NCBI RefSeq assembly: GCF_000981445.1 | Contig: NC_027218.1 | Coordinates: forward strand, 3,410,001-3,474,000 | Direction: 5' to 3' | Origin: Babesia bigemina | Lineage: Eukaryota | Length of the DNA: 64,000 bases | In this document: piece after piece, positions 2,523-60,794 of the stretch | Position numbering within the stretch: the stretch's first letter is position 1 | How the letters are laid out: every line of letters starts with the position of its first letter | Position numbers and translations under genes: made by a program | The notes under the pieces: generated by a model | The model's database searches: none | What the model was told of the DNA's origin: nothing | The model's input: only the letters and a program-made list of their open reading frames with translations

Positions 2523-2999
2523 TCAGCTGCGCAGTAGATACCGCACCCTGTGGAACGGCCGGATGCGGAAGTAGATCATGACGCAGATGACGACAATGAC
2601 GAGGGTGACGGGGACGATGATGTAAGGGATGACGGCGGGGGATGATGAATTAGGGGAGCTGGCTGAAAGCTCTCGACCGGAGCTGTGCTGCTCTACACGG
2701 GGAAGAGAGGCGGCATGGGAGGAAGTAGAGGAAAAACCGGCACGCTGTAGACTGTTGGACGAAACAGAACTGGAAGCAGTTGATCCTCTTTTGAGACCAC
2801 AATAACATGAACACGTGCGTTTCTTACACTCTTGACATCCATCGGGATGGCAATTCCCTCCTCCCCCACTGCGCTCTCGATAGAACTTCATACAGAAATA
2901 ACACCTCGTTCTAGTGCATCCTGCACAAGACACGTAACAGCAATAACAGTCACGCTCCGTACAGCTTTTGTTACACTTACAGTCCAACAGTCCACTCAT
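2523..2999 (-). CDS. Small Cys-rich single-pass membrane protein s1 (158 aa; R-type tail YFRIRPFHRVRYLLRS)
   Basis: ATG in GGGGAAG-ATG context, 16 Cys in first ~67 aa, Ser-rich linker, hydrophobic helix, basic tail; four paralogues in window. Confidence 0.85.
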   Translation of the reverse strand: MSGLLDCKCNKSCTERDCYCCYVSCAGCTRTRCYFCMKFYRERSGGGGNCHPDGCQECKKRTCSCYCGLKRGSTASSSVSSNSLQRAGFSSTSSHAASLPRVEQHSSGRELSASSPNSSSPAVIPYIIVPVTLVIVVICVMIYFRIRPFHRVRYLLRS

Positions 3000-3011: not shown

Positions 3012-4595
3012 CTCCCAGTCCCCTCAGCCTGCAAACATATCAATCACCTAAGCAGCACTCACCAACTGCAACACTACCACTGCCGCTCCCAGTCCCCTCA
3101 ACCTGCAATCATATCAATCACCTAGCAAGCACTCACCAACTGCAACACTACCACTGCCGCTCCCAGTCCCCTCAGCCTGCAAACATATCAATCACCTAAG
3201 CAACGCACTCACCAACAGCAACACTACCACTGCCGCTCCCAGTCCCCTCAACCAGCTAACATCAATCACTCAAGCAGCACTCACCAACTGCAACACGTAC
3301 CACTGCCGCTACCACTCCCCTCAACCTGCAGACATATCAATCACCTTGCAACGCACTCACCAACTGCAACACTACCACTGCCGCGCCCAGTCCCCTCAAC
3401 CTGCTAACATATCAATCACCTAGCAAAGCACTCACCAACTGCAACACTACCACTGCCGCTCCCAGTCCACTCAACCTGCGAACGTATCAATCACCTAGCA
3501 AGCACTCACCAACTGCAACACGTACCACTGCCGCTCCCAGTCCCCTCAGCCTGCAAACATATCAATCACCTAAGCAACGCACTCACCAACAGCAACACTA
3601 CCACTGCCGCTCCCAGTCCCCTCAACCAGCTAACATCAATCACTCAAGCAGCACTCACCAACTGCAACACGTACCACTGCCGCTACCACTCCCCTCAACC
3701 TGCAAGCATATCAATCACCTAGCAACGCACTCACCAACTGCAACACAACCACTGCCGCTCCCAGTCCCCTCAACCTGCGAACATATCAGTCACTCAAGCA
3801 GCACTCACCAACTGCAACACTACCACTGCCGCTCCCAGTCCCCTCAGCCTGCAAGCATATCAATCACCTAAGCAACGCACTCACCAACTGCAACACTACC
3901 ACTGCCGCTCCCTGTCCCCTCAGCCTGCAAGCATATCAATCACCTAAGCAGCACTCACCAACTACTACACGTACCACTGCCGCTCCCAGTCCCCGCAGCC
4001 TGCGAACATGTCAATCACCTAAGCAACGCACTCACCAACTGCAACACTACCACTGCCGCTCCACTCCCCTCAACCTGCAAACATATCAATCACCTAGCAA
4101 GCACTCACCAACTGCAACACTACCACTGCCGCTCCCAGTCCCCTCAGCCTGCGAACTATCAATCACCTAGCAACGCACTCACCAACTACAGCACGCACCA
4201 CTGCCGCTCCCACTCCCCTCAACCTGCAAACATCAATCACCTATGCAAGCACTCACCAACTGCAACACGTACCACTGCCGCGCCCAGTCCCCTCAACCTG
4301 CACGCATATCAATCACCTAAGCAGCACTCACCAACTGCAACGCGTACCACTGCCGCTCCCAGTCACCTCAACCTGCAGACATATCAATCACCTAAGCAGC
4401 ACTCACCAACTACAGCACGCACCACTGCCGCTCCCACTCCCCTCAACCTGCAAACATCAATCACCTATGCAAGCACTCACCAACTGCAACACGTACCACT
4501 GCCGCGCCCAGTCCCCTCAACCTGCACGCATATCAATCACCTAAGCAGCACTCACCAACTGCAACGCGTACCACTGCCGCTCCCAGTCACCTCAT
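3012..4595. repeat. Repeat D array, ~74-76-bp unit, ~21 copies, directly upstream of s1
   Basis: Unit caactgcaacactaccactgccgctcccagtcccctcaacctgcaaacatatcaatcacctagcaacgcactcac; actcac counted 21 times. Confidence 0.95.
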
Positions 4596-4599
4596 CATC

Positions 4600-5105
4600 A
4601 CGTACCCTCACCCCTGTCTCCCCCCAGCCCAGGCTCCGACACCCACGCTGCCCGGGATACCACGGCTGCCCTGACGCGACGCATGTGATCGGCACCAACT
4701 GTCACTTTGAATTATTGAATATTCGCAACGCCATTAAGATTGCAGCGAACCCCGTGCGCTCAGCTCCCACAGTGCAGCAGCACCGTGCTACGAGCCGCAA
4801 TATAGACGCCATGCTGGCGGAGCGTGTCGGCTACGTGCCCAAATATCATATTAACAACCGCTACATCGCTGCCTATAAATGCTACTTAACCGGGCCAACG
4901 CTGATTACGCCACCCTGCCAGTGACTCGCAACACACGACTTAGGTCCCCCGCCGCGGCCCTCACGGCCGCCTACGTAGCAACCAATCACCCAGCCTCACG
5001 TGACACTCACTCAATAGGCAACGCGGACGCCTCTCTCAGTCAATGCACAGCTCAACGCACCAGGCAATCAACGTGCTACAACACCCACCAAATTACGGTT
5101 CATCC
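4600..5105. promoter_or_regulatory. Conserved ~500-bp non-repetitive spacer (candidate promoter region of small gene), copy 1 of 5
   Basis: Highly similar copies at ~13680, 22655, 44670, 60795, always between D and E arrays; function inferred from position only. Confidence 0.4.
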
Positions 5106-5107
5106 GC

Positions 5108-5315
5108 CAGCTCAGCACTTTGCCTGTGTGCCAGCTTACCACTTTGCCTGGGTGCTTGCTTACCACTTTGCCTGTGTGCTAGGTTAGCACATTGCCTGTG
5201 TGCCAGCTTAGCACTTTGCCTGGGTGCTAGGTTAGCACTTAGCCTGAGTGCTAGCTTAGCACTTTGCCTGGGTGCTAGGTTACCACTTTGCCTGAGTGCT
5301 AGGTCAACACGTTGC
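5108..5315. repeat. Repeat E array, 24-bp unit gcttagcactttgcctgggtgcta, ~8 copies
   Basis: Tandem copies; internal inverted repeat tagcac/gtgcta. Confidence 0.93.
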
Positions 5316-5461: not shown

Positions 5462-8400
5462 TTACGGTTGCAGGTACGATATCTTGGCAAGCCTTCCGAC
5501 TTGCGCCGCCGCCAACAGCGATTGCGCCGTTATCTTGTGCGACGACGGTATCCTCAGATGTGACCGTATGTGGAGCACATCCAGTCTGCCAACCATGACG
5601 CAGATGAGGTAGAAGAGGGACAGTGACCAGAGTGCGACGGTCATCCACAAGAAAGGTCCGCGGATGGTGAAAATGAATTCATCGCACTTTTCGAACAGCG
5701 TTCTGAAGTAGTTGGAATTTAATACATTGTTGAGTTGTTTGTAGAAATTGTGGCAATACCTTTTCCCCTCTGCAGCTGAAAGCGTTGCTGGATTGCCGAA
5801 CGTGAATCCGAAACTATACAACGTGCTTATGACACCGCGGCATTCAACGAGGCCTTTGCACTGGCAATTATAGGCAGCGCCATGCTTACCCCGTTTGCAA
5901 GCTGTGCCATGCGTACAGCGACGACATCCCCAATCCTGGCAGGATATGTTGGTAAACGCCCTGAACAAAGATTCAAGACACTGCCAGAACGACCACGGTA
6001 AGTACACTGCCCATGACAGGTAGAGACCGGCGTGCTTCTCGGCAGCGTAGTGGTATGCATCATTGTGCAACGTGGTCAGGTACGGAGCGCAGTGAACATC
6101 CTTGTTCGGATAGTTGCACGTAGTAGGCATTGAAAGCGTTGACAAGTCGGAGTCTGAAGCTTTGGGATGCTCGCCAACTTCGTGGCTCCGGCCGTTTTTG
6201 TAAGCGTCACTAAGCGCACCTGTGAGTGTGCCTGGATCCGCACACAAGTCGATGGACTGCTTCTTGATTGCCTTCACAAACGCAGCGTGGACAGCATTTG
6301 AGTTGACATCTCTGTTAGCATTAAACGCACCAACCAACGTGAGCACAAACTGGAAGTGCTCCGGCAGCGTGGATGGTGGCTTGGGCAGAAGGCACATCAG
6401 TGAGGATATTAAGCCTGTACCGAGGAAGGTCTTGATTGCGTCACACAACTGTCTGCCCGTTTTCGTGCTGCCCGAGAAGCCCTTGAATCCGAGAGGAAGC
6501 AGGCACGGTTGCCCTGGAGAGCTCTTGGAGCAGGTGCTGCATTTCGCTCTGCATCCCACTGACTGCAGTTGGTGCGGCAGATGGCCAGGGAGGCTGTCAC
6601 TGAGATATAACATTAGCGGGGACGTTGGTTGGCAGTTTACTTGACACCTTGCTTGGCTGTTTGCTTCATCGCCTGAGTGCTCGTTACACTGCGATTTGGT
6701 TGTAGGGATGTCCCTCCCGTAGCGGCAGTGTGACCAGCCGTGGTGTTCGGGCGTGATGTTACACTGCAGTTCCAGGAACCGGAACACGGGCAACAATCGG
6801 CGCAGTAGGTCCAGCAGCATGTCCAGGCAGTCCGACGGATCCGATGGGTAATGGAAATTAAATGAGTTGTTGCAGAAGTCGGAGGCGTAAACGGTCCTGG
6901 AGTCGCCAGTCCCGACGACGGCAGTCAATACGTCATACGACGTCGCACAGATGTGGTCCACGGCTTTACGTACGTAGTTATACGATATGTTCCGGGGGTG
7001 TGCTGTTATGGATTGGGCTGCCATGTCAGTCGATGTGAGCTCAAGTTCGTCGTCGCCGGCCGCCTTCTTATGCGGGTTGTCAAATAAGTCACTGATGGTG
7101 ATATCACGCATTGTAGAATATACGGCAGTGTACGGAAAACCGCTGAGCCAGATCAATATGTCGTATACGGAGCACGGGTGCTGCCTCGCTGAGGCCGTGA
7201 GCAGGTGGCACAGTTCATTGTACTGCTCGAAGTGGCTGAATATGCAGTCAATAGCGTCGAACACGTGGAAGTGATTGTCTTTTCTTTGCTCGTTCGATTT
7301 GCATCCCTTAAGATGTGCGTTGTCATCGGCGCCGCGAATTGGTAGCAGCAGCCGCTTTGCAACGTTCTCCCCCGCAACTGTCGGTCTGTTTTGCAACTCG
7401 CCGTTCTGCAGCGTCGCATCGGAGACCGCGTAGCCGTGGCCGACAAATGATCTTCCCACGTCGGTGGACTTATTAATTTGCTGTCCACGTAGACTCTTGC
7501 AATTGTGCGTCAAGTCGGTCAACGTGGAGTTGAGGGTGCATACCACGGTGAAGCATATTTTGGCGAATTTGGCGCCATACGGCGTTAATTTCTGCTTCTC
7601 AAACATCTCGCCGCCAAACGTCTCACTGTCGTAGGCGGAGATGTACGCCTTCGCTAGCTCATCGTGCATCCCCTGTACGCCCTTTCTTAGACACTCGAGC
7701 AGGAGGTTGCTGTCGTCGGCGTAGGATGCGGGGCGTAGGTTATCAAGTAAAGACTGGAGGGTGTTGAGTTTGGTGCTGAAATTGTGGTCGAAAAGGTGTT
7801 TTCTAGCTGCCGGAATGTCATGAAGGTGTTGCAGTAACGCATCTAATTTGTCCTTGAGATCGCCGACATTTTTGGTATGAGGAATTGGATCACCATCGAC
7901 AACCCGGACTGAAGGATTTCTATTTGACATGGTCTCAGTGTGATGTCTTTTAAGTTCGACGACGAGATACGTGTTGAGTGGATCGTACAATTTCTTGAAC
8001 TCCTGTGACAGCGTCTTGAATTCTTCTTTCTTCGACGCCTGTTTTTTGGTGACAGCTCCTTTAAACTCTTCCAGTTTACTCGACTGATTTCGGGGAGCGT
8101 AAAGATCCCATTGGGGTGGTGGTGCCGGTTTCCCCTCGAACGCCTCCATGAATCCCTTGAAGCCAGTGTGCTTGTCCTTTTCGATCGCCTCGGGCAGTCC
8201 CTTGAGGTGCGCGGTGACCCTGTCGGCGAAGTGAGTAAGCAACAGCTGGGTAGAGGTGACGTGATCTACGCGTGCTTTTTGGGTTATTAATTTTTTGGCA
8301 TCTTCAACTTGATTGTCAACGTGCTGGTTTAGCGACTTTATGTATTTGTCTTGTAAGTTTCGTGCGTCTTTCTGGATGAAGTCATCGGCCAACCCTATGA

Positions 8401-11140
8401 CCTCTGTCACATCTATCTCATGAAGCAAAACAAGCTGCTGTTTTATTTTCTGAATGCTCTCCGTTCCTATCCGCTTAGCCTCATCATACGCCCCGAAGTA
8501 TTTATCCCTCAAATCGGTCAAGTTTCCCCTGGCGAATTGGGCGTCTTCTTCGATAAGCTGGAACAGCTCATGGAGAGCAGTGGTGACTTTTTTCAATTCT
8601 TCTTCTGCATATTGTTTTTCACTGTCGATCTTTCCCAATGCTTGTTCTACCTGGGTCTTAATGTCCCTGATCTTCTTTGGAAGTGCGCCTTCAAACTTTT
8701 CTGGCTCATCACCAATAAGGCTATCTTGTTGTACTTGCTTTTCATAATTTACAAATTTACCTCTCTGCAAATCGGATATTCTATCAACATCGGCTGGTCT
8801 GCCCATTGCATCCCCGCCGATCTCCGTATTAAGTTTGTCAGCGACAGCTTTCTGAAATTTGCCTTCTTCGAGCTCAGCGTTAATACTGTCGTACGTAGTT
8901 TTGAATGTCTTCATGATATGATCAAAATCATAATTCTTTGTACCATCGCCGTAATTCTGAGTATCCTTCTTCTTAAACGTTTGCGGGATGACAGTCGATT
9001 TAAGGTTGTCAAGTTTCTGCTTAATGTTTTTATTGAAATCGTCCACCAACGCCTGAAGGCCTCTAGAGTTTTTATGCTGGCTTCCGTCGCTGTACGTAAC
9101 TGGAACGTCACTTTCGTCACCATTATCTACGCCCTTTATGATAACATCCACCTTAGCATTTATAGCTTGCGCAACAGTTCCTATCTCCGACGCAAGTTGT
9201 ATTTCAATGACTTCAATAACTTGGAGTAACACGTCTTTAAAGTGCTGCGATACACTTTTAGCAATGTTGCCTAGGTCTGTAAGTATAGATTCCACTTCCT
9301 CCCTACTTATTGAGCTACTTCTACCAATTAGTTTTGGTAGTATTTGCTGAATAGCAGACACATGCGGTTTAATAATTTCTCTTATACTATCTACACCTTG
9401 AAAATTCTCCTTACCCATTGTCACTGACTGTAAGTCAGTTATCTGAACAGTGCCGTTTGCAATGCCGTCAAGCGCGCGAAGCTCCTGCGCAGCTTCTTTA
9501 ACAGCACTCTGTACATCATCATATATCGCACCGCTTGCGAATTTTTTCCACACTGCACCCATTTTGTTTATCGCCGCCTGGACTTGGACCATCACATTGG
9601 TGTCGAGCGTCATTATATATTCACTAACGGAGTCAAACGCATCGCCTGCTTTTATAGCCTGTAATAATTTGGTTTCACCATTGATCGCAGCGACATCAAG
9701 AATCTGTAACTTACTAAGCTGGCTTTCCACACCGCTGATAGCCTCCTGAATCGCTCTCTGTGTAGCTTCGATTTTTTCGTAAAATCCGTCCGAATTGGTT
9801 TTGAGGGGAGTGAGGATACGAGTTATTGCATCTTCAATCCTCCACAATCCATCCTTCACATGCCCTTCCAACTTCTCATACGGCGTTCTAATCGACTCTT
9901 CGACATGTTTCCAAATCGCTCCCTTAATGGCTCCTTTAACCTTATACAAATCCTCCTTCAGCGCGTCATTCATATCCTTAACCTGCCCAAGCGCTGCAGT
10001 AACTTTCTCTTTGACCTGCGCTTTAGCCGCCTCTCCGGCGCCGTGAAGTATCAATACAGATGCTGTGATCTCCCTTAGAGCACCCTCAATTTTATACGGC
10101 TTCATACTTGAATCACCTTTATTAACCTCTTTTAATATCGAATCAACTCTACCCAAAGCCGCCGTTATGACTATCGTAACTGAATCAATCCACTTAGTTA
10201 ACTCATCCACATACCCTGTCAGCGTTCTTTTTATGTCCTCCAATTGCAACTTGATTTTCGTTACCCTTTCTTTCATATCGTTAATAAGCTTCGTTACTTG
10301 ACCTCTAATTTCCCTATTCACGCAGGCTCCTGCATCAGTCAACACACGTTCAATCTCTCTTTCCATGTCCTGTAGGTGTTTCTCTTCCTTCCTGGATAGT
10401 TCACGCAGATGCTTTGTCTCAAGCTTAACGGAGTCACACGCTATGTTAACTCTGTCACGCAAATTAGAATTAAGATCATTAATCGAAATTTTTATATCTT
10501 TGTGATTACGATCGATATCTAAAGTTTCAAAAAAATTGGTTGCATTCCGAACAGATTGTTTTACTAGGTTTTCGGCGTCCAATGCAGCTTCCTGTGCAGT
10601 CTGAGGCCTGCGTATGTCTATATTCTTATTTAACTCACTTACCTGTTTTTTGAAGGCATCATTTACCTGTTCTAATAATCTGATTATAGGATCTGAAACC
10701 CTTTTATTAGACTTCATGACACCATCATTATACCCCCCCACCCCTTCGACCACCTTCACAATCGCAACACTAAAACCTTTTTTACCGGCGTGTTTATTGG
10801 TCTCAAGTGACGTAATTGCATTGTTTATTTCTCCTTTATGCTGCCCTAAATGCTTGTGGATGTTACTGAGAACACCACTCAGAAATCCCATCACCCCGTC
10901 ACACAGCCTATCCAAGTCGGAGTACACAATTCCAGTGCCGTCGTAGCCTTTGGAGTCAGAGTTGAAGCCGAGGAATTTTTCGAGGCCAGTACAGAGGTTA
11001 GTAAGGATGTTAGTAGGGTTGTTATTTAAGGTATTTTTGAGGTTCACAATTTTGTCAAATTTCTTGTCAAGCTCCCTAGGCGGCACACGGTCAGGGCAGT
11101 GGCAAGAGGTGGAAGAGGGAAGTGAAGGGTGACAAGGCAC
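5462..11140 (-). CDS. ves: VESA-like variant erythrocyte surface antigen G1 (tail A, short N-terminus); start uncertain (leader ATG 11169 out of frame, first in-frame ATG 10891)
   Basis: 1892-codon ORF, GIVYSDLDRLCDGVMGF motif, Cys-rich C-terminal domain, TM, tail HKITAQSLLAAAQVGRLAKISYLQP; family assignment from recalled Babesia VESA features. Confidence 0.85.
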   Translation of the reverse strand: MPCHPSLPSSTSCHCPDRVPPRELDKKFDKIVNLKNTLNNNPTNILTNLCTGLEKFLGFNSDSKGYDGTGIVYSDLDRLCDGVMGFLSGVLSNIHKHLGQHKGEINNAITSLETNKHAGKKGFSVAIVKVVEGVGGYNDGVMKSNKRVSDPIIRLLEQVNDAFKKQVSELNKNIDIRRPQTAQEAALDAENLVKQSVRNATNFFETLDIDRNHKDIKISINDLNSNLRDRVNIACDSVKLETKHLRELSRKEEKHLQDMEREIERVLTDAGACVNREIRGQVTKLINDMKERVTKIKLQLEDIKRTLTGYVDELTKWIDSVTIVITAALGRVDSILKEVNKGDSSMKPYKIEGALREITASVLILHGAGEAAKAQVKEKVTAALGQVKDMNDALKEDLYKVKGAIKGAIWKHVEESIRTPYEKLEGHVKDGLWRIEDAITRILTPLKTNSDGFYEKIEATQRAIQEAISGVESQLSKLQILDVAAINGETKLLQAIKAGDAFDSVSEYIMTLDTNVMVQVQAAINKMGAVWKKFASGAIYDDVQSAVKEAAQELRALDGIANGTVQITDLQSVTMGKENFQGVDSIREIIKPHVSAIQQILPKLIGRSSSISREEVESILTDLGNIAKSVSQHFKDVLLQVIEVIEIQLASEIGTVAQAINAKVDVIIKGVDNGDESDVPVTYSDGSQHKNSRGLQALVDDFNKNIKQKLDNLKSTVIPQTFKKKDTQNYGDGTKNYDFDHIMKTFKTTYDSINAELEEGKFQKAVADKLNTEIGGDAMGRPADVDRISDLQRGKFVNYEKQVQQDSLIGDEPEKFEGALPKKIRDIKTQVEQALGKIDSEKQYAEEELKKVTTALHELFQLIEEDAQFARGNLTDLRDKYFGAYDEAKRIGTESIQKIKQQLVLLHEIDVTEVIGLADDFIQKDARNLQDKYIKSLNQHVDNQVEDAKKLITQKARVDHVTSTQLLLTHFADRVTAHLKGLPEAIEKDKHTGFKGFMEAFEGKPAPPPQWDLYAPRNQSSKLEEFKGAVTKKQASKKEEFKTLSQEFKKLYDPLNTYLVVELKRHHTETMSNRNPSVRVVDGDPIPHTKNVGDLKDKLDALLQHLHDIPAARKHLFDHNFSTKLNTLQSLLDNLRPASYADDSNLLLECLRKGVQGMHDELAKAYISAYDSETFGGEMFEKQKLTPYGAKFAKICFTVVCTLNSTLTDLTHNCKSLRGQQINKSTDVGRSFVGHGYAVSDATLQNGELQNRPTVAGENVAKRLLLPIRGADDNAHLKGCKSNEQRKDNHFHVFDAIDCIFSHFEQYNELCHLLTASARQHPCSVYDILIWLSGFPYTAVYSTMRDITISDLFDNPHKKAAGDDELELTSTDMAAQSITAHPRNISYNYVRKAVDHICATSYDVLTAVVGTGDSRTVYASDFCNNSFNFHYPSDPSDCLDMLLDLLRRLLPVFRFLELQCNITPEHHGWSHCRYGRDIPTTKSQCNEHSGDEANSQARCQVNCQPTSPLMLYLSDSLPGHLPHQLQSVGCRAKCSTCSKSSPGQPCLLPLGFKGFSGSTKTGRQLCDAIKTFLGTGLISSLMCLLPKPPSTLPEHFQFVLTLVGAFNANRDVNSNAVHAAFVKAIKKQSIDLCADPGTLTGALSDAYKNGRSHEVGEHPKASDSDLSTLSMPTTCNYPNKDVHCAPYLTTLHNDAYHYAAEKHAGLYLSWAVYLPWSFWQCLESLFRAFTNISCQDWGCRRCTHGTACKRGKHGAAYNCQCKGLVECRGVISTLYSFGFTFGNPATLSAAEGKRYCHNFYKQLNNVLNSNYFRTLFEKCDEFIFTIRGPFLWMTVALWSLSLFYLICVMVGRLDVLHIRSHLRIPSSHKITAQSLLAAAQVGRLAKISYLQP

Positions 11141-11194
11141 AAGTTATTGCTATGGGTTATAGAGGTCATAGCGGTATTATGGCGAGGTGATTCG

Positions 11195-11993: not shown

Positions 11994-12146
11994 TTAGCTG
12001 CGCAGTAGATACCGCACCCTGTGTAACGGCCGGATGCGGAAGTAGACCATGACGCAGATGACGACGATGATGATGAGCATAGGAGCGATGATGTAAGGGG
12101 CGGGGGAGGAGGGAGTAGTCACCTCACTGCTCATGTCATTGATCAT
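11994..12146 (-). other. Orphan R-type TM+tail cassette, 50-aa ORF MINDMSSEVTTPSSPAPYIIAPMLIIIVVICVMVYFRIRPLHRVRYLLRS
   Basis: Manual translation; homologous to C-terminus of s1/s2/s4/s5, no Cys-rich domain. Confidence 0.75.
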
Positions 12147-12247
12147 CAACGCAATTGCTACTCTGTCTAGAACATTAGATGTCAGTCGCCAGTCAGGTGA
12201 TCTGTGGGATTTCGATTAAGAATGTTAGCGCCAACATATTGCTGAGT

Positions 12248-12435
12248 TTAGCTGTAGAACGCGATGCAGAAGGGTATCTTGCGTACGAGGAAATCGCGGA
12301 TGTTGCGGCCCACCGGAAAGCGGAAGATGCACAGGTCGAGCAGGATGATGGCGACGATGATGCCAACGATGACGGCGGCGATGGCCGAGTAGGGAGAGTG
12401 AAGTAGTCACCTCACTGCTCATGTAATTGGCCATC
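12248..12435 (-). pseudogene. Orphan F-type TM+tail cassette (..PYSAIAAVIVGIIVAIILLDLCIFRFPVGRNIRDFLVRKIPFCIAFYS), out of frame with its MSSEVT leader
   Basis: Manual translation; TM frame has an upstream TGA. Confidence 0.75.
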
Positions 12436-12533
12436 AACGCAATCATTACTGTCTAGAACATTAGATGTCAGTTGCCAGTTAGGTGAGCAGTGGAATATGG
12501 ACGAACGATTTATGCGCTACTAAATTGCATAGT

Positions 12534-12680
12534 TCAGCTGTAGAACGCGATGCAGAAGGGAATCTTGCGTACGAGGAAATCGCGGATGTTGCGGCCCACC
12601 GGGAAGCGGAAGATGCACAGGTCGAGCAGGATGATGGCGACGATGACGGAGTAGGGAGGGAGTGGTCACCTCACTGCTAA
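12534..12680 (-). pseudogene. Orphan F-type tail cassette with shortened TM, out of frame with leader
   Basis: Manual translation PPYSVIVAIILLDLCIFRFPVGRNIRDFLVRKIPFCIAFYS*. Confidence 0.72.
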
Positions 12681-12753: not shown

Positions 12754-13215
12754 TCAGCTGCGCAGTAGATACCGCACCCTGTGGAACGGCCGGATGCGGA
12801 AGTAGACCATGACGCAGACGACGACGATGAGGAGGGCGACGGCGGCGATGATGTAAGGGACGGGGGAGGAATTGGATGGAGCGGTGGTATGAACAGCACT
12901 GGGTTCACCGGTGGAACGCTGTACGGTGGTAGAAGAGGAGACACTAGGCGATTGGACTGCGAGGGAGGAAGAAGAGCGAAGCTGTCGACGTTCTTCCAAT
13001 TTTTTTTTCTCACAACAGTCACATGGACACAATTTGGTGTCACATTCATTACATCTCTGAGGTTTGCAGTCCCAGAATCCACTCCTTAGCCGAGTAGACA
13101 GATTGAGACATCGAAGACAACTTGGACTCCTACATCCTGCACAACACAAATGACAACAAAGACACTCATGCTCTGTACATCGTTTTGTACACTTACACAA
13201 TGGAGTATAGCCCAT
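12754..13215 (-). CDS. Small Cys-rich single-pass membrane protein s2 (153 aa; R-type tail)
   Basis: Same Cys spacing, linker, TM and tail as s1; GGGAAG-ATG start. Confidence 0.85.
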   Translation of the reverse strand: MGYTPLCKCTKRCTEHECLCCHLCCAGCRSPSCLRCLNLSTRLRSGFWDCKPQRCNECDTKLCPCDCCEKKKLEERRQLRSSSSLAVQSPSVSSSTTVQRSTGEPSAVHTTAPSNSSPVPYIIAAVALLIVVVCVMVYFRIRPFHRVRYLLRS

Positions 13216-13227
13216 CTTCCCGCTTCC

Positions 13228-13665
13228 CTCCCAGTCCCCTCAGCCTGCAAACATATCAATCACCTAAGCAGCACTCACCAACTGCAACACTACCACTGCC
13301 GCTCCCAGTCCCCTCAACCTGCAAGCATGTCAATCACCTAGCAACGCACTCACCAACTGCAACACGTACCACTGCCGCTCCCACTCCCCTCAACCTGCAA
13401 GTATATCAATCACCTAGCAACGCACTCACCAACTGCAACACTACCACTGCCGCTCCCACTCCCCTCAACCTGCGAACATATCAATCACCTAAGCAACGCA
13501 CTCACCAACTGCAACACGTACCACTGCCGCGCCCAGTCCCCTCAACCTGCAGACATGTCAATCACCTAGCAACGCACTCACCAACTGCAACACTACCACT
13601 GCCACGCCCACTCCCCTCAAGCTGCAAGCATATCAATCACCTACGCAAGCACTCACCAACTGCGA
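13228..13665. repeat. Repeat D array, ~6 copies
   Basis: Same ~75-bp unit. Confidence 0.93.
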
Positions 13666-13679
13666 CATGACTTACATAA

Positions 13680-21167: not shown

Positions 21168-21430
21168 TAACTTGGTCACCACTTTGGTCACCACTTTGGT
21201 CAACACGTTGGTCAGCACCTTGGTCAACACCTTGGTCAGCACATAGGTCAGCACTTTGGTCATGGCATTGGTCAGCACGTTGGTCAACACTTTGGTCATG
21301 TGCTTGGTCACCACGTTGGTCAGCACATTGGTCAACACATTGGTCAGCACGTTGGTCAACACGTTGGTCATGGCATTGGTCAGCACATTGGTCAGCACCT
21401 TGATAAGGTGCTAGGTCAGGTGGTAGGTCA
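21168..21430. repeat. Repeat C array
   Basis: Same unit. Confidence 0.93.
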
Positions 21431-21555
21431 ACTCACTGCTTATGCGATCGATCATCAACGCAACCATTACTCTGTCTACAACATTAGATGTCAGTTGCCA
21501 GTTAGGTTATCAGTGGAATTTAGATTAATGATTTATGCGCTAACAATTCCTTAGA

Positions 21556-21742
21556 TCAGCTGTAAAACGCGATGCAGAAGGGTATCTTGCGTACGAGGAA
21601 ATCGCGGATGTTGCGGCCCACAGGGAAGCGGAAGATGCACAGGTCGAGCAGGATGATGGCGACGAAGATGGCAACGATGACGGCGGCGATGGCGGAGTAC
21701 GGAGGGGGGGAAGGTCACCTCACTGCTCATGCGATTCGTCAT
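21556..21742 (-). pseudogene. Orphan F-type TM+tail cassette, out of frame with its MSSEVT leader (a G homopolymer lies at the junction)
   Basis: Near-copy of the s3 3' end and its 3' flank; TGA at 21715-21717 in TM frame. Confidence 0.75.
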
Positions 21743-21840
21743 CAACGCAGTCATTACTGTCTACAACATTAGGTGTCAGTTGGCAGTCGGGTGGTTAGTG
21801 GAATTTAGATTAATGATTTATGCGCTAACAATTCCTTAGA

Positions 21841-22401
21841 TCAGCTGTAGAACGCGATGCAGAAGGGTATCTTGCGGACGAGGAAATCGCGGATGTTGCG
21901 GCCCACAGGAAAGCGGAAGATGCACAGGTCGAGCAGGATGATGGCGACGATGATGGCAACGATGACGGCGGCGATGGTGGAGTAGGGAGGGGGGGAAGGC
22001 GGAGAATCATCGTCTTTCTTGACAGCTTGGGGAGGGGACAAATGATCTTGACTGGCTTCGGAGCTTTTTGGACCTGGGAGAGAGGGGGAACCAGGGGGAG
22101 GCTGTGGAACGGGGAGAGGAGATTGGCAGGAGTCAGGCTCCTCTCTACATTTCCGTTGACAACAGTCACATTTACAGTCTTTCTCCTTGCCTGTACATTG
22201 TTTCTTACATCTCAAAGTTTCGCATTCGTATTTTTTACCTCTGTTTTGGCTGCGCATAAAGTAATCATACCAACATTCATCGCATCTTCCAGCCTTACAC
22301 TCTGTACAACACCAGGGACAACAATTACACACTACATTTTTTCGACATCCATTATGACACTGCGTGCACAGAGCATATGGCATGTACACTCGCCCCGTCA
22401 T
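21841..22401 (-). CDS. Small Cys-rich single-pass membrane protein s3 (186 aa from ATG 22401; F-type tail ..RKIPFCIAFYS)
   Basis: GGGGAAG-ATG start as in paralogues; Cys-rich domain, Pro-rich linker, TM. Confidence 0.85.
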   Translation of the reverse strand: MTGRVYMPYALCTQCHNGCRKNVVCNCCPWCCTECKAGRCDECWYDYFMRSQNRGKKYECETLRCKKQCTGKEKDCKCDCCQRKCREEPDSCQSPLPVPQPPPGSPSLPGPKSSEASQDHLSPPQAVKKDDDSPPSPPPYSTIAAVIVAIIVAIILLDLCIFRFPVGRNIRDFLVRKIPFCIAFYS

Positions 22402-22409
22402 CTTCCCCT

Positions 22410-22645
22410 CCCAGTCACTCAATCTGCGAACATATCAATCACTCAAGCAGCACTCACCAACTGCAACACGTACCACTGCCCCTCCCAGTCCCCTTAACCT
22501 GCAGACATATCAATCACCTAGCAACGCACTCACCAACTGCAACACTACCACTGCCGCTCCAGTCCCCTCAACCTGCAGACATATCAATCACTCAAGCAGC
22601 ACTCACCAACTGCAACACGTACCACTGCCGCTCCCAGTCCCCTCA
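22410..22645. repeat. Repeat D array, ~3 copies
   Basis: Same unit. Confidence 0.9.
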
Positions 22646-22654
22646 TCAACACTC

Positions 22655-23158
22655 ACCCTCACCGCTGTATCCCCCCAGCCCGGGCCACCGACACCCACGC
22701 TGCCCGGGATACCACAGCTGCCCTGACGCGACGCATGTGATCAGCACCAACTGTCACTCTAAATTATTCACTATTCGCATCGCCATGAAAATTGCAGCGA
22801 ACCCCGTGCGCTCAACTCCCACAGTGCAGCAGCACCGTGATACGAGCCGCGGTATCGGCGCCATGCTGGCGGAGCGTGTCGGCTAGGTCCCTAAATATCA
22901 TATTAACGATCGCTACATTGCCGCCTATAAACGCCATTTAACCAGGCCAACGCGGATTACGCCACCCTGCCAGTGACTCGCAACACACGACTTAGGTCAC
23001 CCGCCGCGGCCCTCACGACCGCCTACCTTAGCGACCAATCACCCAGCCTCACGTGACACTCACTCAATGGGCAACGCGGACACCTCTCACAGTCAACGCG
23101 TAACTCAACGCACCAGGCAATCAACGTGCTACAACACTCACTAAATTACGGTTCATCC
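22655..23158. promoter_or_regulatory. Conserved ~500-bp spacer, copy 3
   Basis: Similar to 4600-5105. Confidence 0.4.
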
Positions 23159-23159
23159 G

Positions 23160-23243
23160 CCAGCTTAGCACTTTGCCTGGGTGCTAGCTTAGCACGTAGC
23201 CTGGGTGCTAGGTCAACACTTTGCCTGGATGCCAGCTTAGCAC
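23160..23243. repeat. Repeat E array, ~3 copies
   Basis: Same unit. Confidence 0.88.
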
Positions 23244-23370
23244 TTAATCTCAACGCTATCTAGTTCACAGGTTGCCGCTAGAGTAATTCGAGACATTAGA
23301 CTACGTTTGTTTGTTAGGTGAGTAGGTGAGTTGTTACGTGAGTTGTTGTGAATTACAAGTGTGAATACAA

Positions 23371-26300
23371 TTACGGTTGTAGATACGATATCTTCGCAAG
23401 CCTTCCGACTTGCGCCGCCGCCAACAGTGATTGCGCCGTTATCTTGTGCGACGACGGTATCCTCAGGTGTGAGCGTATGTGGAGCACATCCAGTCTGCCA
23501 ACCATCACGCAGATGAGGTAGAAGAGGGACAGTGACCAAAGAGGGAGGACCAAGTAGAAGAATGGTAGGCGGATTTGCCAAAGGAAGTCGTCGCATTTGG
23601 TCAAGAGGTTTCCGAAACATTTGGAAGTCAACACGTTCTGCAGCTGCTTTGTAAAGTCGTGGCAATATCGTCGATGATGCTGTTCTAGCAATTTCATTGA
23701 ATCTCCGAAGGTGAAACCATATCCGTAGAATGCGCCCAGCACGCCGCGACAACGTACGAGTGCGTTGCATTTGCAGTTGTAGTCGACACCGTGTTTTCCC
23801 GGTTTACATGTATCGCCTATCAGGCAACTACGGCATCCCCAGTATTGGCAGGAGATAGCACAGAATGCGTCAAGTAACGATTTCAGATATTGATAAAACG
23901 TCCAAGGAAGGTAAAGTGCCCATGATAGATAGAGCCCAGAATGTTTGATGGCGAGACAACTATACGCATCAGAGGACAACGAATATAGGTATGGGCCACA
24001 GTAAACATTCCGATTAGGATAGACACAAGATTTGTCTGTACAGAGAGTGTAGAGATCGGCATTTGTTGCATCGGGGTGCGGGTTAGCATTATGGTTCTTG
24101 TTGCTGTTATATGCATCACGCAAGGCACTTGTGAAGCTGGACGCATTCTCATACAGCTTGATAGACTGCTTATCAATGGATTCTTCAAACGATTCACGTA
24201 ATGTTTTCACGTCACTCTTTCTCTTGGTTGTAGTAGCGTTAATACCGGCAGCCAGCGTTAACACAAAACTAAAGTGCTCTGATAGCGTCGACGGTGGTTT
24301 AGGATCGAGGGCAAATAGACATGAGAGCCCATCGAAATTGAGGAATATATCAATAATTCGACAGAGATCAGCACCCGTTTTCGTTGACCCGGAGAATCCC
24401 CTGAACCCAAGCGGTGTCAAACAAGGCATGCCAGGTGAGCTCTTTGGACACGTGTTACACGTTGACTTACAGCCTATGGAGGAGAGGTCATGTGGCAAGT
24501 GACCAGTCAGAGAGTCGTATAGATATGACATTAATGGCGACGTAGGTTGGCAATTTGGTTGACAATTTACCTTGCATTTTGGTTGGCACTCAGCTTTGTC
24601 GGTTGAATGCTTTTCACATGGCGAGTTGGATGCCTTCACACTTTTGCCGTACAGGCACTCGCTCCAACCGTGATATTTAGCACCGAGTCTGCATTTTTGT
24701 TGCAAAAATCGTAGACATTGGAGTACTCTACGCAGCAAATCGACGATCATCTGCAAGCAATCGTCCCCCGTTTTGGGGTATTTGAATTTAAATGAGTTGT
24801 TGCAAAACTCGCTGCCATAGATGGTTTGGGCGTCACCGTGGCCGGCGATAGCTGTAACGATATCGTAAGACATTGAGCAGATATGGGCAAGAGCCTTGTC
24901 GACACGTTCGTATGTTATGTCGCTTGGGTAAGCCGGTATTGATAGCGATCCTTCATCAACCGCTGTGAACTCAAGACCGTCGAGCACCTGCGCCTTATGC
25001 TTATCTTTGTCGGTCAGCACGTCAGTGATGCTGTCACGCAAGAGGGTCGAATACACTCCGCTATATGGAAGCCCGGAGAACCATACGAGGGCATCATATA
25101 CGCTGCTTGGCACTTTGGTTGATGACGCAGTGGGTATGTGACACACCTCATTGTACTTATCTGTGTGATAGAGAATGCATTCGAGTAGGTCGAAGAGATT
25201 GAATTGACTGGGTTTCTTGGTTTTATTAGATTTGCAGGTTTTGAGATGTTTGGCTATTTCAGTATCGATGTAGTCTGTTTCGAGTAGTTTATCATGAATG
25301 GTCTTACCGCTGAGCTTGTCAGATGGGTGCTTCAATTCGCCGTCTTTCGATACCTCATCAGTGGCGACTTGAAATCCGCAGCGGACCAAAAATGTGCCGA
25401 GTGAATTTTCGCCGCGTTTGTCATTCTTACACCATTGTCTACTATTCCAGCCGCCGCCGGCCATGCACCCTTTATTCAAGCTGTTAAGACTGTCATGAAG
25501 AGTATATAAAATGGTGGCAAAGACTTTGACATATTTGGACGCGTGGCTTTCGTCGTATATTTGGCCAGAGTACCTGCTGACGTAGGCCTTTTGGAACTCA
25601 GTGACAATAGTAGTGAAGCCACTTCGCACGGCCACGAGGATGAAAGGGTTCTTCCCTTCACCATACGTCGACGGTTTGAATTCACTAACCTTAGTTTCAA
25701 GTGGATCCAGGTTTGTCAAGAATTCATGGTCGAAGTGTCCACGTTCTGCGAGCATAGCGAGCACCTTGCGGAGGGCTTCCTTGGCAGGCGTAATGATTTT
25801 GTAATCGGACGTGAAATCTTTCTGCTTCTCTAAGCTGCCAAAAAAGGCCTTCACAGCAGTATTGAATTTTTCAGCGCCCTGACTGAGCGGAGATTTTTGT
25901 TTAGGGGAGTGCGTCTCCGAAATCTTATCAATGCCCTGAATCACTTGTTCGCCTGTCAGAAAGTGCGTTTCCAACCTCAACATAAACCCATTCAGCCCGG
26001 TGTTCAGATCATTGTGTATCTTGGCCGACAATCCATTTAATTCGCCGTTAACTTTTCCTGTAAACTTCTCGAGCAGGGACTTGGTTGAGCAGACGAACCG
26101 TTTCTGAATTAGGGTGGTGAGTTTCACGGTGGCTGCTTCCACTTCTTGTCTGACGTTGTTCTCGAGTTTTTCGATGGTTTCTTGGCATGCTCGGGTGGCA
26201 AAAGCATCCAAGCCATGAACGAATGTAATGGTACTTTTCAAATCCTTGCTCCGCAATTCGCTAAGTTGGCGGTGGATGTGTTGAAGAGTGTCTTTGGCTG

Positions 26301-41891: not shown

Positions 41892-43155
41892 GGGATGTAG
41901 AGTGGGTAAAGGGGCGATGTAGAGTGGGTTAAGGAGCGATGTAGAGTGGGTTAGGGAGCGATGTAAGGTGGGTTAGGGAGCGATGTGGAGTGGGTTAAGG
42001 GGCGATGTAGGATGGATAAGGAGCGATGTAGAGTGGATAAGGGGCGATGTGGAGTGGAGTAAGGGACGATGTAGAGTGGGTTAGGGAGCGATGTAGAGTG
42101 GTTAAAGGGGCGATGTAGAGTGGTTAAAGGGGCGATGTAGAGTGGTTAAAGGGGCGATGTAGAGTGGATAAGGAGCGATGTAGAGTGGATAAGGGGCGAT
42201 GTGGAGTGGATAAAGGGGCGATGTGGAGTGGGTAAAGGAGCGATGAAGAGTGGGTTAGGGAGCGATGAAGAGTGGGTAAAGGGGCGATGTAGAGTGGGTT
42301 AGGGAGCGATGTAGAGTGGGTTAGGGGGCGGTGTAAAGTGGATTAGGGAGCGATGTAGAGTGGATAAAGGGGCGATGTGGAGTGGGTAAAGGAGCGATGA
42401 AGAGTGGGTTAGGGAGCGATGAAGAGTGGGTTAAGGGGCGATGTAGAGTGGGTAAAGGGGCGATGTAGAGTGGATAAAAAGGCGATGTAGACTGGATAAA
42501 GGGGCGATGTAGAGTGGGTTAAGGGGCGATGTGGAGTGGGTAAAGGGGCGATGTAGAGTGGATAAAGGGGCGATGTAGAGTGGGTTAAGGGGCGATGTAG
42601 AGTGGATTAGGGAGCGATGTAGAGTGGATAAGGGGCGATGTGGAGTGGATAAAGGGGCGATGTGGAGTGGGTAAAGGAGCGATGAAGAGTGGGTTAGGGA
42701 GCGATGAAGAGTGGGTAAAGGGGCGATGTAGAGTGGGTTAGGGAGCGATGTAGAGTGGGTTAGGGGGCGGTGTAAAGTGGATTAGGGAGCGATGTAGAGT
42801 GGACAAAGGGGCGATGTAGAGTGGGTTAAGGAGCGATGTAGGGTGGGTTAAGGGGCGATGTAGAGTGGATAAAGGGGCAATGTAGAGTGGATAAAGGGGC
42901 GATGTAGAGTGGGTTAAAGAGCGATGTAGAGTGGGTTAAGGGGCGATGTGGAGTGGGTAAAGGGGCGATGTAGAGTGGGTAAAGCGGCGATGTAGAGTGG
43001 ATAAAGGAGCGATGTAGAGTGGGTTAAGGAGCGATGTAGAGTGGGTTAAGGGCGATGTAGAGTGGATAAAGGGGCGATGTAGAGTGGGTTAGGGAACGAT
43101 GTAGAGTGGGTTAAGGGGCGATGTGGAGTGGGTAAAGGGGCGATGTAGAGTGGAT
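41892..43155. repeat. Repeat A array, ~57 copies
   Basis: Same unit. Confidence 0.97.
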
Positions 43156-43169
43156 AATAATCACCACTT

Positions 43170-43352
43170 GTAACCATGTAATCGCTGCCGTGTCCATGTC
43201 ATCGCTGCCGTGACCATGTCATCGCTGACGTGACCATGTCATCGCTGCCTCAACCAAGTCATCGCTGCCGTCACCATGTCATCGCTGCCGGAACCATGAC
43301 ATCGCTGCCGTGACTGTTAACTTGGTCAGGTGCTTGGTGACCTCGTTGGTCA
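43170..43352. repeat. Repeat B array (43170-43315) plus very short C array (43319-43352)
   Basis: Same units. Confidence 0.9.
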
Positions 43353-43463
43353 TGTTATTACTCATCAACGCAATCACTTCTGTCTATAACATTAGATGCC
43401 AGTTGGCAGTTAGGTTATCAGTGGGATATGGATGACGATGTTCGCGCTACTAAATTGCTTAGT

Positions 43464-43655
43464 TTAGCTGTAAAACGCGATGCAGAAGGGTATCTTGCGT
43501 ACGAGGAAATCGCGGATGTTGCGGCCGACCGGAAAGCGGAAGATGCACAGGTCGAGCAGGATGATGGCGACGATGATGGCAACGACGACGGCGGCGATGG
43601 CTTGGGGGGAAGTAGTCACATCACTGCTCATGTGATTTTTCATCAACGTAATCAT
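43464..43655 (-). other. Orphan F-type TM+tail cassette, in frame with leader (63-aa ORF)
   Basis: ORF track MITLMKNHMSSDVTTSPQAIAAVVVAIIVAIILLDLCIF...CIAFYS. Confidence 0.7.
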
Positions 43656-43701
43656 TAGTGTCTAGCACATTAGATGTCAGTTGCCAGTTTGGTGATTGTA
43701 G

Positions 43702-44151
43702 TTAGCTGCGCAGTAGATACCGCACCCTGTGGAAGGGCCGGATGCGGAAGTAGATCATGACGCAGATGACGACGATGATGAGGGCGACGGGGACGATGAT
43801 GTAAGGGGCGGGGTTAGAAGATGATGAACTAGTAGGGCCGGTGTGATGCAGTTGACCGGTGTGCTGCTCTACACGGGTGGGAGAGGAGGAACCGGAAGAA
43901 AAAGTGTATCCACGCTCCGCATACTGGGCACGTACAGATTCTACATTGCGTGCATTTATACGACAAAAACACGTACAGCCGGTGCCACAGTTTTTACATC
44001 CCAAATCATGGCATAAACCTTCACTTCGGCGCCTATAAGAGGTATCGCGACATACAGAACATATACCTCTACACCGTACACAAGACACGTAGCAGCATCT
44101 ACATTCACCCTGCGTACATCCAGTACCACAGGTACAATTGTCCCTTCCCAT
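43702..44151 (-). CDS. Small Cys-rich single-pass membrane protein s4 (149 aa; R-type tail)
   Basis: Same architecture and start context as paralogues. Confidence 0.85.
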   Translation of the reverse strand: MGRDNCTCGTGCTQGECRCCYVSCVRCRGICSVCRDTSYRRRSEGLCHDLGCKNCGTGCTCFCRINARNVESVRAQYAERGYTFSSGSSSPTRVEQHTGQLHHTGPTSSSSSNPAPYIIVPVALIIVVICVMIYFRIRPFHRVRYLLRS

Positions 44152-44164
44152 CTTCCCCTCTCCC

Positions 44165-44660
44165 TCCCACTCCCCTCAACCTGCAAACATATCAATCACC
44201 TAGCAACGCACTCACCAACTGCAATGTACCACTGCCGCTCCAGTCCCCTCAACCTGCGAACATGTCAATCACCTATGCAAGCACTCACCAACCGCAACAC
44301 GTACCACTGCCGCTCCCAGTCCCCTCAGCCTGCAGACATATCAGTCACCTAGCAACGCACTCACCAACTGCAACACTACCACTGCCGCTCCCAGTCCCCT
44401 CAGCCTGCGATCATATCAATCACTCAAGCAGCACTCACCAACTGCAACACTACCACTGCCTCTACCAGTCCCCTCAACCTGCAAACATCAATCACTTAAG
44501 CAGCACTCACCAACTGCAACACGTACCACTGCCGCTCCCACTCCCCTCAGCCTGCAGACATATCAATCACCTAGCGACGCACTCACCAACTGCAACACGT
44601 ACCACTGCCGCTTCCAGTCCCCTCATCAACACGTACCAGTGCCGTTCCAGTCCTTTCATC
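44165..44660. repeat. Repeat D array, ~6 copies
   Basis: Same unit. Confidence 0.92.
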
Positions 44661-51249: not shown

Positions 51250-51279
51250 AGCGGAATAATGGCGATGTGATTCAAGGGA

Positions 51280-59806: not shown

Positions 59807-59904
59807 CAACGCAATCACTTCTGTCTATAACATTAGATGCCAGTTGGCAGTTAGGTTATCAGTGGGATATGGATGACGATGTTCGCGCTACTAAATTGCT
59901 TAGT

Positions 59905-60099: not shown

Positions 60100-60158
60100 A
60101 AAGCAATCATTACTCTGTCTAGAACATTAGATGTCAGTCGCCAGTTATGTAATTGTGA

Positions 60159-60611
60159 TTAGCTGCGCAGTAGATACCGCACCCTGTGGAACGGCCGGAT
60201 GCGGAAGTAGATCATGACGCAGATGACGAGGATGATGAGGGCGACGGGGACGAGGATGTAAGGGGTGGGAGAAGATGGTGAGTCGGAGGTATTACTCTGC
60301 TCTGCGATGATATACTGTACATCATGGGAAGATGTGGATACCGATGGAGCGGATGTAGAGCGTCTCTGTTCGCAACATGGACATTCACAGCCGGATTTAT
60401 CACACTCACTGCATTTCTTTGTACATTTCGGTGGTTTGCATTCGTCTTTTAATGTGCCTACTTGGCGTTGGTAGAAAAAGTTATAACAGTATATGCATCC
60501 TCTATTTTGACATTTTACACAACACCAATAACAGCAATTACACTTCACGAGCAATATACACCCATTATTACAATCGTTACAAGGTAGACCACCATACGTC
60601 CCTTTAGACAT
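60159..60611 (-). CDS. Small Cys-rich single-pass membrane protein s5 (150 aa; R-type tail)
   Basis: Same architecture and start context as paralogues. Confidence 0.85.
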   Translation of the reverse strand: MSKGTYGGLPCNDCNNGCILLVKCNCCYWCCVKCQNRGCIYCYNFFYQRQVGTLKDECKPPKCTKKCSECDKSGCECPCCEQRRSTSAPSVSTSSHDVQYIIAEQSNTSDSPSSPTPYILVPVALIILVICVMIYFRIRPFHRVRYLLRS

Positions 60612-60617
60612 CTTCCC

Positions 60618-60785
60618 CTGCCGCTCCCGGTCCCCTCAACCTGCAAACATCAATCACCTAGCAAGCACTCACCAACTGCAACACTACCACTGCCGCTACC
60701 ACTCCCCTCAACCTGCAAACATATCAATCACTCAAGCAGCACTCACCAACTGCAACACTACCACTGCCGCTCCCAGTCCCCTCAT
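60618..60785. repeat. Repeat D array, ~2 copies
   Basis: Same unit. Confidence 0.88.
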
Positions 60786-60794
60786 CAACACTTA

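What the first reader, a model, noticed from the sequence alone, without database searches (positions are those of the whole stretch)
3012..4595. Repeat D unit = micro-intron plus ~40-nt ATG-free exon, with a 4-codon uORF across the acceptor, tandemly arrayed in front of every small gene
Seen: on the coding (minus) strand each ~75-bp unit reads GTGAGT gc..(c/t)taggtgattgat ATG NNN GCAG | G(T/C)TGAggggactgggagcggcagtggta(c)gtgttgcagttg. GTGAGT is present in all 38 units counted (21, 6, 3, 6, 2 before s1-s5) and GCAG in nearly all, delimiting 32-36-nt segments (e.g. 60641-60672 and 60713-60746, separated by a 40-nt exon). The last GCAG lies about 20-35 nt before the small-gene ATG. The same sequence encodes ATG-NNN-GCA-GGN-TGA (M-x-A-G-stop). 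The variable part is almost always exactly one codon (TTT, TCT, CTT, TTC, ATT, TTA, CGT), one unit swaps TGA for TAA (~22494) and two swap GCA for GCT (~3253, ~3627), keeping the uORF. Known: GTGAGT and YAG are canonical spliceosomal signals and Babesia introns are typically very short. Inference: a 5' leader with 2-21 uORFs that are removed only if every micro-intron is spliced, i.e. a copy-number-tunable, splicing-coupled translational switch. I know of no description of this for Babesia.
Basis: partly seen in the sequence, partly recalled or inferred. Interest (0 to 1): 0.92.

Follow-up and report, generated by a model that had tools for sequence, protein, structure and literature searches.

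The report
Babesia repeat built of tiny introns
In the cattle parasite Babesia bigemina, a 75-base repeat lies in 2-21 copies just before each of five small cysteine-rich membrane-protein genes; each copy likely holds a tiny intron, so repeat number would set intron number, but the proposed translation switch finds no support in sequence conservation.

Summary
The window is a Babesia bigemina ves1b-like cluster. It holds 38 D units (21, 6, 3, 6, 2), each with GTGAGT, ending 22-29 nt before the ATG of five small Cys-rich membrane-protein genes. These belong to an unnamed family of 57 B. bigemina gene models. Units are diverged (87% alike, 33 distinct intron sequences), yet the 12-nt donor block is invariant in 38 of 38 (P about 0.005). 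A branch-like YTRAY lies 10-12 nt before the acceptor in 38 of 38, and the only AG loss occurs where a spare TAG exists. This favours a spliced 5' leader amplified as a minisatellite. The uORF is intact in 34 of 38 units, but its ATG and stop vary at background rate, 33% of shuffled units give such a uORF, and other upstream ATGs survive splicing. No parasite RNA reads were available, so transcription and splicing are untested. Verdict: likely an intron-number VNTR (0.5). A selected copy-number translational rheostat is unlikely (0.12). A DNA-level repeat remains the main rival (0.3).

The parts
3012..4594 (-). D array before s1: 21 units of about 75 bp, each a predicted 32-36-nt intron plus a 39-41-nt ATG-free non-coding spacer (first predicted intron 4555-4522, last 3062-3029)
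2523..2999 (-). s1: 158-aa Cys-rich protein, Ser/Pro linker, one predicted C-terminal membrane helix, short tail
4595..5108 (-). About 500-bp block conserved before all five arrays (89% mean column identity); likely promoter and 5' leader; holds upstream ATGs (4684, 4598, 4595) and a leading donor-like site at 4605
   Evidence: function inferred
5109..5315 (.). 24-bp repeat between the ves1b-like 3' end and the conserved block; present before all five arrays
5465..11143 (-). ves1b-like large ORF (1893 codons stop to stop) upstream of the s1 cassette
   Evidence: family assignment from the paralog 45853-51312
13228..13667 (-). D array before s2: 6 units
12754..13215 (-). s2: 153-aa family member
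22408..22645 (-). D array before s3: 3 units
21841..22401 (-). s3: 186-aa family member with the alternative membrane helix and tail
44164..44625 (-). D array before s4: 6 units
43702..44151 (-). s4: 149-aa family member
60618..60784 (-). D array before s5: 2 units (predicted introns 60746-60713 and 60672-60641)
60159..60611 (-). s5: 150-aa family member

Best explanation
Repeat D is a 72-77-bp minisatellite lying directly before the start codon of five small Cys-rich membrane-protein genes; it is likely transcribed as their 5' leader, each unit likely being one spliced 32-36-nt intron plus a 38-41-nt non-coding exon, probably multiplied from a single ancestral leader intron by unequal crossing-over. 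Shown: unit anatomy, copy numbers, position, non-coding spacer lengths, donor invariance. Inferred: transcription through the array and splicing of each unit by intron definition (GTGAGT donor, YTRAY branch at -10 to -12, pyrimidine triplet, GCAG acceptor). The same exon-start sequence flanks both ends of each array, which would allow expansion. The intronic ATG is likely a passenger: an unspliced unit would leave a 4-codon uORF and so would probably cost expression. That may be why donors are kept, but the uORF itself shows no sign of being selected. Copy number would then change intron number and mature leader length (about 40 nt per unit, up to about 880 nt for s1) and may dampen output as a side effect.
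For: Donor -3..+6 carries 0 variant alleles against 6.3 expected from the unit's own rate (Poisson P 0.002); longest invariant run is 12 columns and spans the donor (permutation P 0.0046), although units are only 87% alike within and between arrays and 33 of 38 intron sequences are distinct. YTRAY at -10 to -12 in 38 of 38; its variants (CTGAT, TTGAC) stay within the consensus. The AG is lost only in 2 of the 3 units that have TTA before it, giving a spare TAG; 0 of the other 35 lose it (one event, since the two units are identical). Indels leave introns at 32-36 nt; no ATG in 33 of 33 internal spacers or at any junction. Signals are on the sense strand only (GTRAGT 21 versus 0 in the s1 array) and absent from the four neighbouring repeats. 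The ORFs are real genes by conservation: 16 invariant Cys in 7 sequences, all starting at the ATG after the array; one member, BBBOND_0111400, is listed as differentially expressed in blood-stage RNA-seq (PMC10975891 Table S1 row). A 5' UTR intron is RACE-proven for B. bigemina ef-1alpha (PMC5106780 passages). Piroplasm introns are short: B. microti 20-25 bp, B. bovis mean 60 bp (PMC3467087 passages).
Against: No transcript evidence for the array. A second invariant block of 9 nt (GGCAGTGGT) lies in the spacer, so invariance is not unique to the donor, and columns are not independent, so the P values are optimistic. The AG, YAG and branch columns are not significantly more conserved than background by allele count (P 0.4-0.7). 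The unit is GT-rich: donor plus YAG arises in 14% of shuffles. With the spare TAG the branch A would sit only 7 nt upstream, which is tight. No ATGGGG/CCCCAT motif, and an initiator match in only 3 of 5 upstream blocks (motifs from PMC4148916), so the start site is unplaced. B. bovis 5' UTRs have a median of 152 nt, far below the predicted s1 leader. Competing signals exist (spacer TTGCAG 3 nt before each donor, leading donor-like sites), so the array could be skipped as one long intron.
Confidence: 0.5

Rival explanations
1. D is a DNA-level minisatellite (recombination boundary or chromatin/protein-binding array) like the 22-, 20-, 12- and 24-bp repeats that flank every gene in this cluster. 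It lies upstream of the start site or inside one long leader intron, and at most the last acceptor is used; the invariant block is a protein site or a product of gene conversion.
For: The cluster is built of several repeat arrays at fixed gene boundaries. Units are as alike between arrays as within (0.869 both), showing exchange between loci. AGTGC also occurs in the 12- and 24-bp repeats on the same strand. A non-splice 9-nt block is invariant too. Leading donor-like sites 24-83 nt before the first unit (GTACGT twice, GTGAGT, GTAAGT, GTTATG) could open one long intron.
Against: The longest invariant run sits exactly on a canonical donor; branch-like pentamer and acceptor follow at intron-like spacing (1.4% of shuffles). 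AGTGC is not invariant in the other repeats. The array ends 22-29 nt before the ATG, closer than a typical leader length.
Confidence: 0.3
2. One reading: a selected, splicing-coupled translational switch in which 2-21 uORFs repress the gene unless every micro-intron is removed, tuned by copy number.
For: The uORF is intact in 34 of 38 units and in all 5 last units; all 4 losses fall in the two arrays s1 and s2 where copies are redundant (4 of 27 versus 0 of 11, Fisher P 0.30). TGA>TAA and GCA>GCT keep it. The ATG is intronic in every case, so retention would expose it.
Against: ATG and stop vary at background rate (5 alleles against 4.2 expected), with four independent losses; 33% of shuffles give such a uORF; other upstream ATGs remain after all D introns are removed in 5 of 5 genes; GCA>GCT is equally explained by the spare TAG; nothing shows regulated retention.
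Confidence: 0.12
3. The spacers are coding exons giving variable Gly/Ser-rich N-termini, as in the public ab initio gene models.
For: 30 of 57 family models carry D-spacer-like peptides, 12 of them with joints matching exact intron removal (sequences).
Against: Spacers are 38-41 nt with mixed lengths, so no frame is kept; upstream ATGs end in stops in every spliced leader; models use all three frames and often drop the conserved Cys domain; the annotation was a consensus of ab initio predictors, improved manually (PMC4066756 section 8).
Confidence: 0.03

Closest known systems
Minisatellite-driven intron formation in duplicated human genes (De Grassi and Ciccarelli 2009, PMC2812944; passages read)
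   Same: Variable tandem repeats at exon-intron boundaries of recently duplicated paralogs create new introns; 8 of their 27 intron modifications lie in UTRs.
   Different: There, units average 30 bp in about 4 copies and activate cryptic sites. Here every unit carries a full predicted donor-branch-acceptor set plus an exon, in up to 21 copies, before each member seen of a parasite multigene family.
5' UTR intron of B. bigemina and B. bovis ef-1alpha (PMC5106780; passages)
   Same: Leader intron in the same species, shown by RACE.
   Different: One intron, not repeated, housekeeping gene.
B. bovis ves1beta genes with 2-11 variable introns (PMC2034396, PMC4066756; passages)
   Same: Intron number varies among paralogs at Babesia variant-antigen loci.
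   Different: Those are described as inconsistent in length and position within the gene; D is a uniform tandem array before the start codon of a different, small-gene family.
B. bovis smORF and B. bigemina ves2 (PMC4066756 section 22 part 1; PMC6630957 passages)
   Same: Small multicopy genes interspersed with ves1.
   Different: smORF and ves2 have signal peptides, and ves2 lacks a membrane anchor. These proteins start with a 16-Cys domain and end in a membrane helix; that paper found no smORF homologs in B. bigemina.
Plasmodium var2csa uORF repression; trypanosome 70-bp repeats; Plasmodium rep20/SPE2 arrays (all recalled, not read here)
   Same: uORF control of a variant surface antigen; repeat arrays upstream of variant-antigen genes.
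   Different: var2csa has one long uORF and no repeated introns; the DNA arrays are not known to me to be spliced unit by unit.

Membership tests
Spliceosomal (U2-type) intron | GT donor with extended consensus | tested here: met
   GTGAGT in 38 of 38; 0 variant alleles against 4.2 expected over 6 columns
Spliceosomal (U2-type) intron | YAG acceptor | tested here: met
   GCAG in 36 of 38; the other 2 have a TAG 3 nt upstream
Spliceosomal (U2-type) intron | Branch point near the acceptor | tested here: inconclusive
   YTRAY at -10 to -12 in 38 of 38, but not more conserved than background; the consensus is recalled general knowledge, not measured for B. bigemina
Spliceosomal (U2-type) intron | Removed from a transcript (junction reads) | not testable with these tools
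   No RNA holder listed; 0 reads in 8 of 24 listed runs laid, which is no test
Regulatory uORF system | ATG and stop conserved above background | tested here: not met
   5 alleles against 4.2 expected; 4 independent losses in 38
Regulatory uORF system | uORF lies in the mRNA and is translated | not testable with these tools
   No start-site or ribosome data
Minisatellite / VNTR | Head-to-tail units with varying copy number | tested here: met
   Period 74-75, 2 to 21 copies across five paralogous loci
Minisatellite / VNTR | Allelic variation at one locus between genomes | tested here: inconclusive
   Model BBBOND_0313750 matches s1 exactly in three pieces but its spacer series could not be threaded through this array; may be an allele, a paralog or a limit of my script
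ves2 / smORF (small genes s1-s5) | Secreted, no membrane anchor (ves2); N-terminal signal peptide (both) | tested here: not met
   C-terminal hydrophobic helix (residues 128-149) and Cys-rich N-terminus; no Pfam family at cut-off
BbigVes1b (large neighbouring ORFs) | Sequence similarity to named VESA1B | tested here: met
   Residues 1350-1820 of ORF 45853-51312 hit BBBOND_0303890 at 55%, E 3e-168, named VESA1B in PMC4066756 section 23; only this one of the large ORFs was searched

The most novel reading that the evidence does not exclude
B. bigemina controls an unrecognised family of about 57 small variant membrane proteins, paired with ves1b, through a heritable rheostat: a minisatellite whose every unit is a micro-intron hiding a uORF start. 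Only transcripts spliced at all n units are translated, so recombination that changes n, or stage-specific splicing efficiency, switches individual genes up or down.
Probability: 0.12. Interest if true: 0.88.

Novelty: new variant of a known kind. Interest (0 to 1): 0.55.

Why it matters
If spliced, this is intron multiplication caught in the act: up to 21 near-identical 32-36-nt introns in one leader, with intron number varying like a VNTR. It is a natural test of how small-intron recognition copes with dense competing splice sites and of whether intron number sets expression. Independently of splicing, the work exposes a B. bigemina family of 57 gene models of small 16-Cys membrane proteins beside ves1b, left as hypothetical proteins; 30 of the 57 models carry peptides read from this repeat and are probably mis-built. 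Correcting them bears on B. bigemina surface-antigen biology and on reading its RNA-seq and proteomics.

Tried and rejected
RNA test: no RNA holder listed; 8 of the 24 added runs were laid at 88% likeness on 59830-61290 and 21830-23800 and gave 0 reads; nothing shows the parasite is in those runs, so this is no evidence either way. No whole genome is held for this window. A spacer-motif scan of metagenome contigs found 0 loci, so statistics rest on the 38 units of the window. Threading model BBBOND_0313750 through the s1 array failed (54 and 43 residues reached). Pfam gave nothing at cut-off for 8 proteins. AlphaFold2 on a 7-sequence alignment gave mean pLDDT 46, only the membrane helix confident; no fold search was run. 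Family gene ids in supplements: 1 of 18 found in PMC10975891 (a differential list); 0 of 10 in PMC9806345 (file may be cut); 0 of 6 in PMC9531838; 0 of 6 in PMC4066756 with file 1 not searched; 0 of 6 in PMC5660447, where two large-gene ids were also absent, so uninformative. The ves promoter paper PMC3294438 is not held. G-quadruplex: G4Hunter window maxima 1.6-2.1 and mean near 1.0 for spliced leaders; noted, not pursued. Coding-exon reading rejected (frames not kept). Assembly collapse rejected (33 distinct intron sequences in 38 units). Earlier scan findings: none in 3 look-ups.

Full report
Setting. The five small ORFs hit only Babesia bigemina hypothetical proteins: 13 with s1 alone, 51 with a 7-sequence profile, and 6 more in the 50%-cluster search, 57 models in all, some of them fragments. 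One further weak hit (E 1.5e-4, unnamed) is probably unrelated. The one large ORF searched (45853-51312, residues 1350-1820) hit 346 proteins, the 120 listed being B. bigemina and B. ovata or unlabelled. They include BBBOND_0303890, which Jackson et al. name VESA1B (PMC4066756 section 23). The window is therefore a tandem ves1b-like cluster on the minus strand. Five times the order is: large gene, 24-bp repeat, a 500-bp block conserved at 89%, D array, small gene. Large and small genes also carry neighbouring locus numbers elsewhere, for example 0111390/0111400 and 0305020/0305030.

Observation. There are 38 units; the GT..AG segments are 32-36 nt; the 33 internal spacers are 38-41 nt and ATG-free; the last acceptor is 22-29 nt from the ATG. 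The small ORFs (149-186 aa) share 16 invariant cysteines and a C-terminal membrane helix, and each starts at the ATG just after the array, so D is upstream of the coding sequence.

Is the unit an intron? The units are diverged and shuffled: identity is 0.869 both within and between arrays, and 33 of 38 intron sequences are distinct. Against that background the block around the donor is invariant: 0 alleles in positions -3 to +6 against 6.3 expected, and a 12-column invariant run with permutation P 0.0046. A YTRAY pentamer has its A at -10 to -12 in 38 of 38 units. The triplet before GCAG is the most variable part but is T or C in 107 of 114 letters, as suits an acceptor. The AG is lost only in two identical units, both among the three that have a TAG 3 nt upstream. 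The signals are on the sense strand only and absent from the four other repeats. Against this: a 9-nt spacer block is also invariant; acceptor and branch columns are not significantly conserved; columns share history, so the P values flatter; donor plus YAG arises in 14% of shuffles, falling to 1.4% with the pentamer. The branch consensus is recalled, not measured in this species. Leader introns exist in B. bigemina (PMC5106780 passages) and piroplasm introns are short (PMC3467087 passages; T. parva modes 55 and 80 bp, PMC2612703 passages).

Is the uORF a device? The four-codon uORF is intact in 34 of 38 units. Its ATG and stop hold 5 variant alleles against 4.2 expected, and a uORF of up to four codons appears in 33% of shuffled units. 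Losses are confined to s1 and s2 (4 of 27 versus 0 of 11, P 0.30), which leaves room for redundancy but is not significant. After removing all D introns in silico, every leader still has ATGs upstream of the array: one 104-163 nt before the first donor opening 25-28 codons, and one or two in the leading part-unit. A leading donor-like site could remove the latter, but 'clean only if all D introns are spliced' needs extra assumptions. That may explain donor invariance without the uORF being selected.

Expression. No RNA holder was listed, and 8 of 24 added runs laid gave no reads, which is no test. One family member, BBBOND_0111400, is in the differential list of attenuated versus virulent blood-stage parasites (logFC -9.16, logCPM 8.28, FDR 2e-7; PMC10975891 Table S1 row); 17 other ids were not in that list. 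This shows transcription of one coding region, not of the array, and may reflect gene presence rather than regulation. Public models already cut introns out of D: 30 of 57 carry spacer-like peptides (87 pattern hits in 9,602 residues against 6 in 203,729 residues of large-gene controls). They come from ab initio predictors trained on B. bovis (PMC4066756 section 8), so they show that D occurs genome-wide and looks intron-like to such programs, not that it is spliced.

Mechanism. Most likely (0.5) an ancestral leader intron flanked by similar exon-start sequence was amplified by unequal crossing-over and spread with the cassette; each unit is likely spliced by intron definition, leaving a G-rich non-coding leader of about 40 nt per unit. 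Rivals: a DNA-level repeat, or one long intron (0.3); a selected uORF rheostat (0.12); coding exons (0.03).

Novelty. Tandem repeats creating introns, also in UTRs, are known in human paralogs (PMC2812944 passages). I found no description of repeat D or of this small-gene family in ten full-text searches (listings and abstract starts only) or in what I read of PMC4066756 (abstract, sections 8, 22 part 1, 23, passages), PMC5660447 (section 28, passages), PMC10463595, PMC10975891, PMC6630957, PMC6381282, PMC2034396 and PMC4148916 (passages). PMC9806345 and PMC9531838 were seen only as listings and supplement searches. Subscription papers, theses, PiroplasmaDB curation and supplement file 1 of PMC4066756 were not visible and may bear on this. 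Verdict: new variant of a known kind, interest 0.55; one re-mapping of existing RNA-seq would decide the splicing question.

Noticed in passing
large ORFs ending at 5465, 14695, 23374, 45853, 61727 versus 29532, 36421, 52537: The 3'-end type of the large gene predicts what follows: five ORFs with one C-terminal tail are each followed by the 24-bp repeat, conserved block, D array and small gene; three with the other tail go straight to the 12/20/22-bp repeats. The small-gene cassette seems to travel with one ves1b 3' end.
   Followed up: partly
12114-12646, 21425-21999, about 43320-43700, about 59830-60160: 285-bp modules downstream of s2-s5 carry extra copies of the alternative membrane helix and tail used by s3 and many database members; two interchangeable tails may be swapped onto the Cys domain by recombination.
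   Followed up: partly
89-1966 and seven similar arrays (for example 41894-43157, 57768-58628): The 22-bp repeat directly upstream of each large ORF contains telomere-like GGGTTA/TTAGGG words with extreme GC skew; resembles subtelomeric arrays before variant-antigen genes in other parasites (recalled).
   Followed up: no
5' ends of large ORFs near 11140, 20500, 28480, 34820, 57720: A conserved ATG just after the 22-bp repeat is not in one open frame with the main ORF in five of eight large genes (frame breaks or stops before a later Met). Either the later Met is the start or these are silent cassettes. A pyrimidine tract with CTGAC and TAG there looks like a splice acceptor.
   Followed up: no
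4684-4598 and equivalents before s2-s5: An upstream ATG opens a 25-codon ORF in 4 of 5 cassettes (28 in s1) that ends beside the leading donor-like site; several public models start here.
   Followed up: partly
public models BBBOND_0313750 (s1-like) and P0018/BBBOND_0313960 (s4-like): Both splice out the conserved Cys domain and read parts in other frames, so the annotation of this family is probably wrong in many members.
   Followed up: partly
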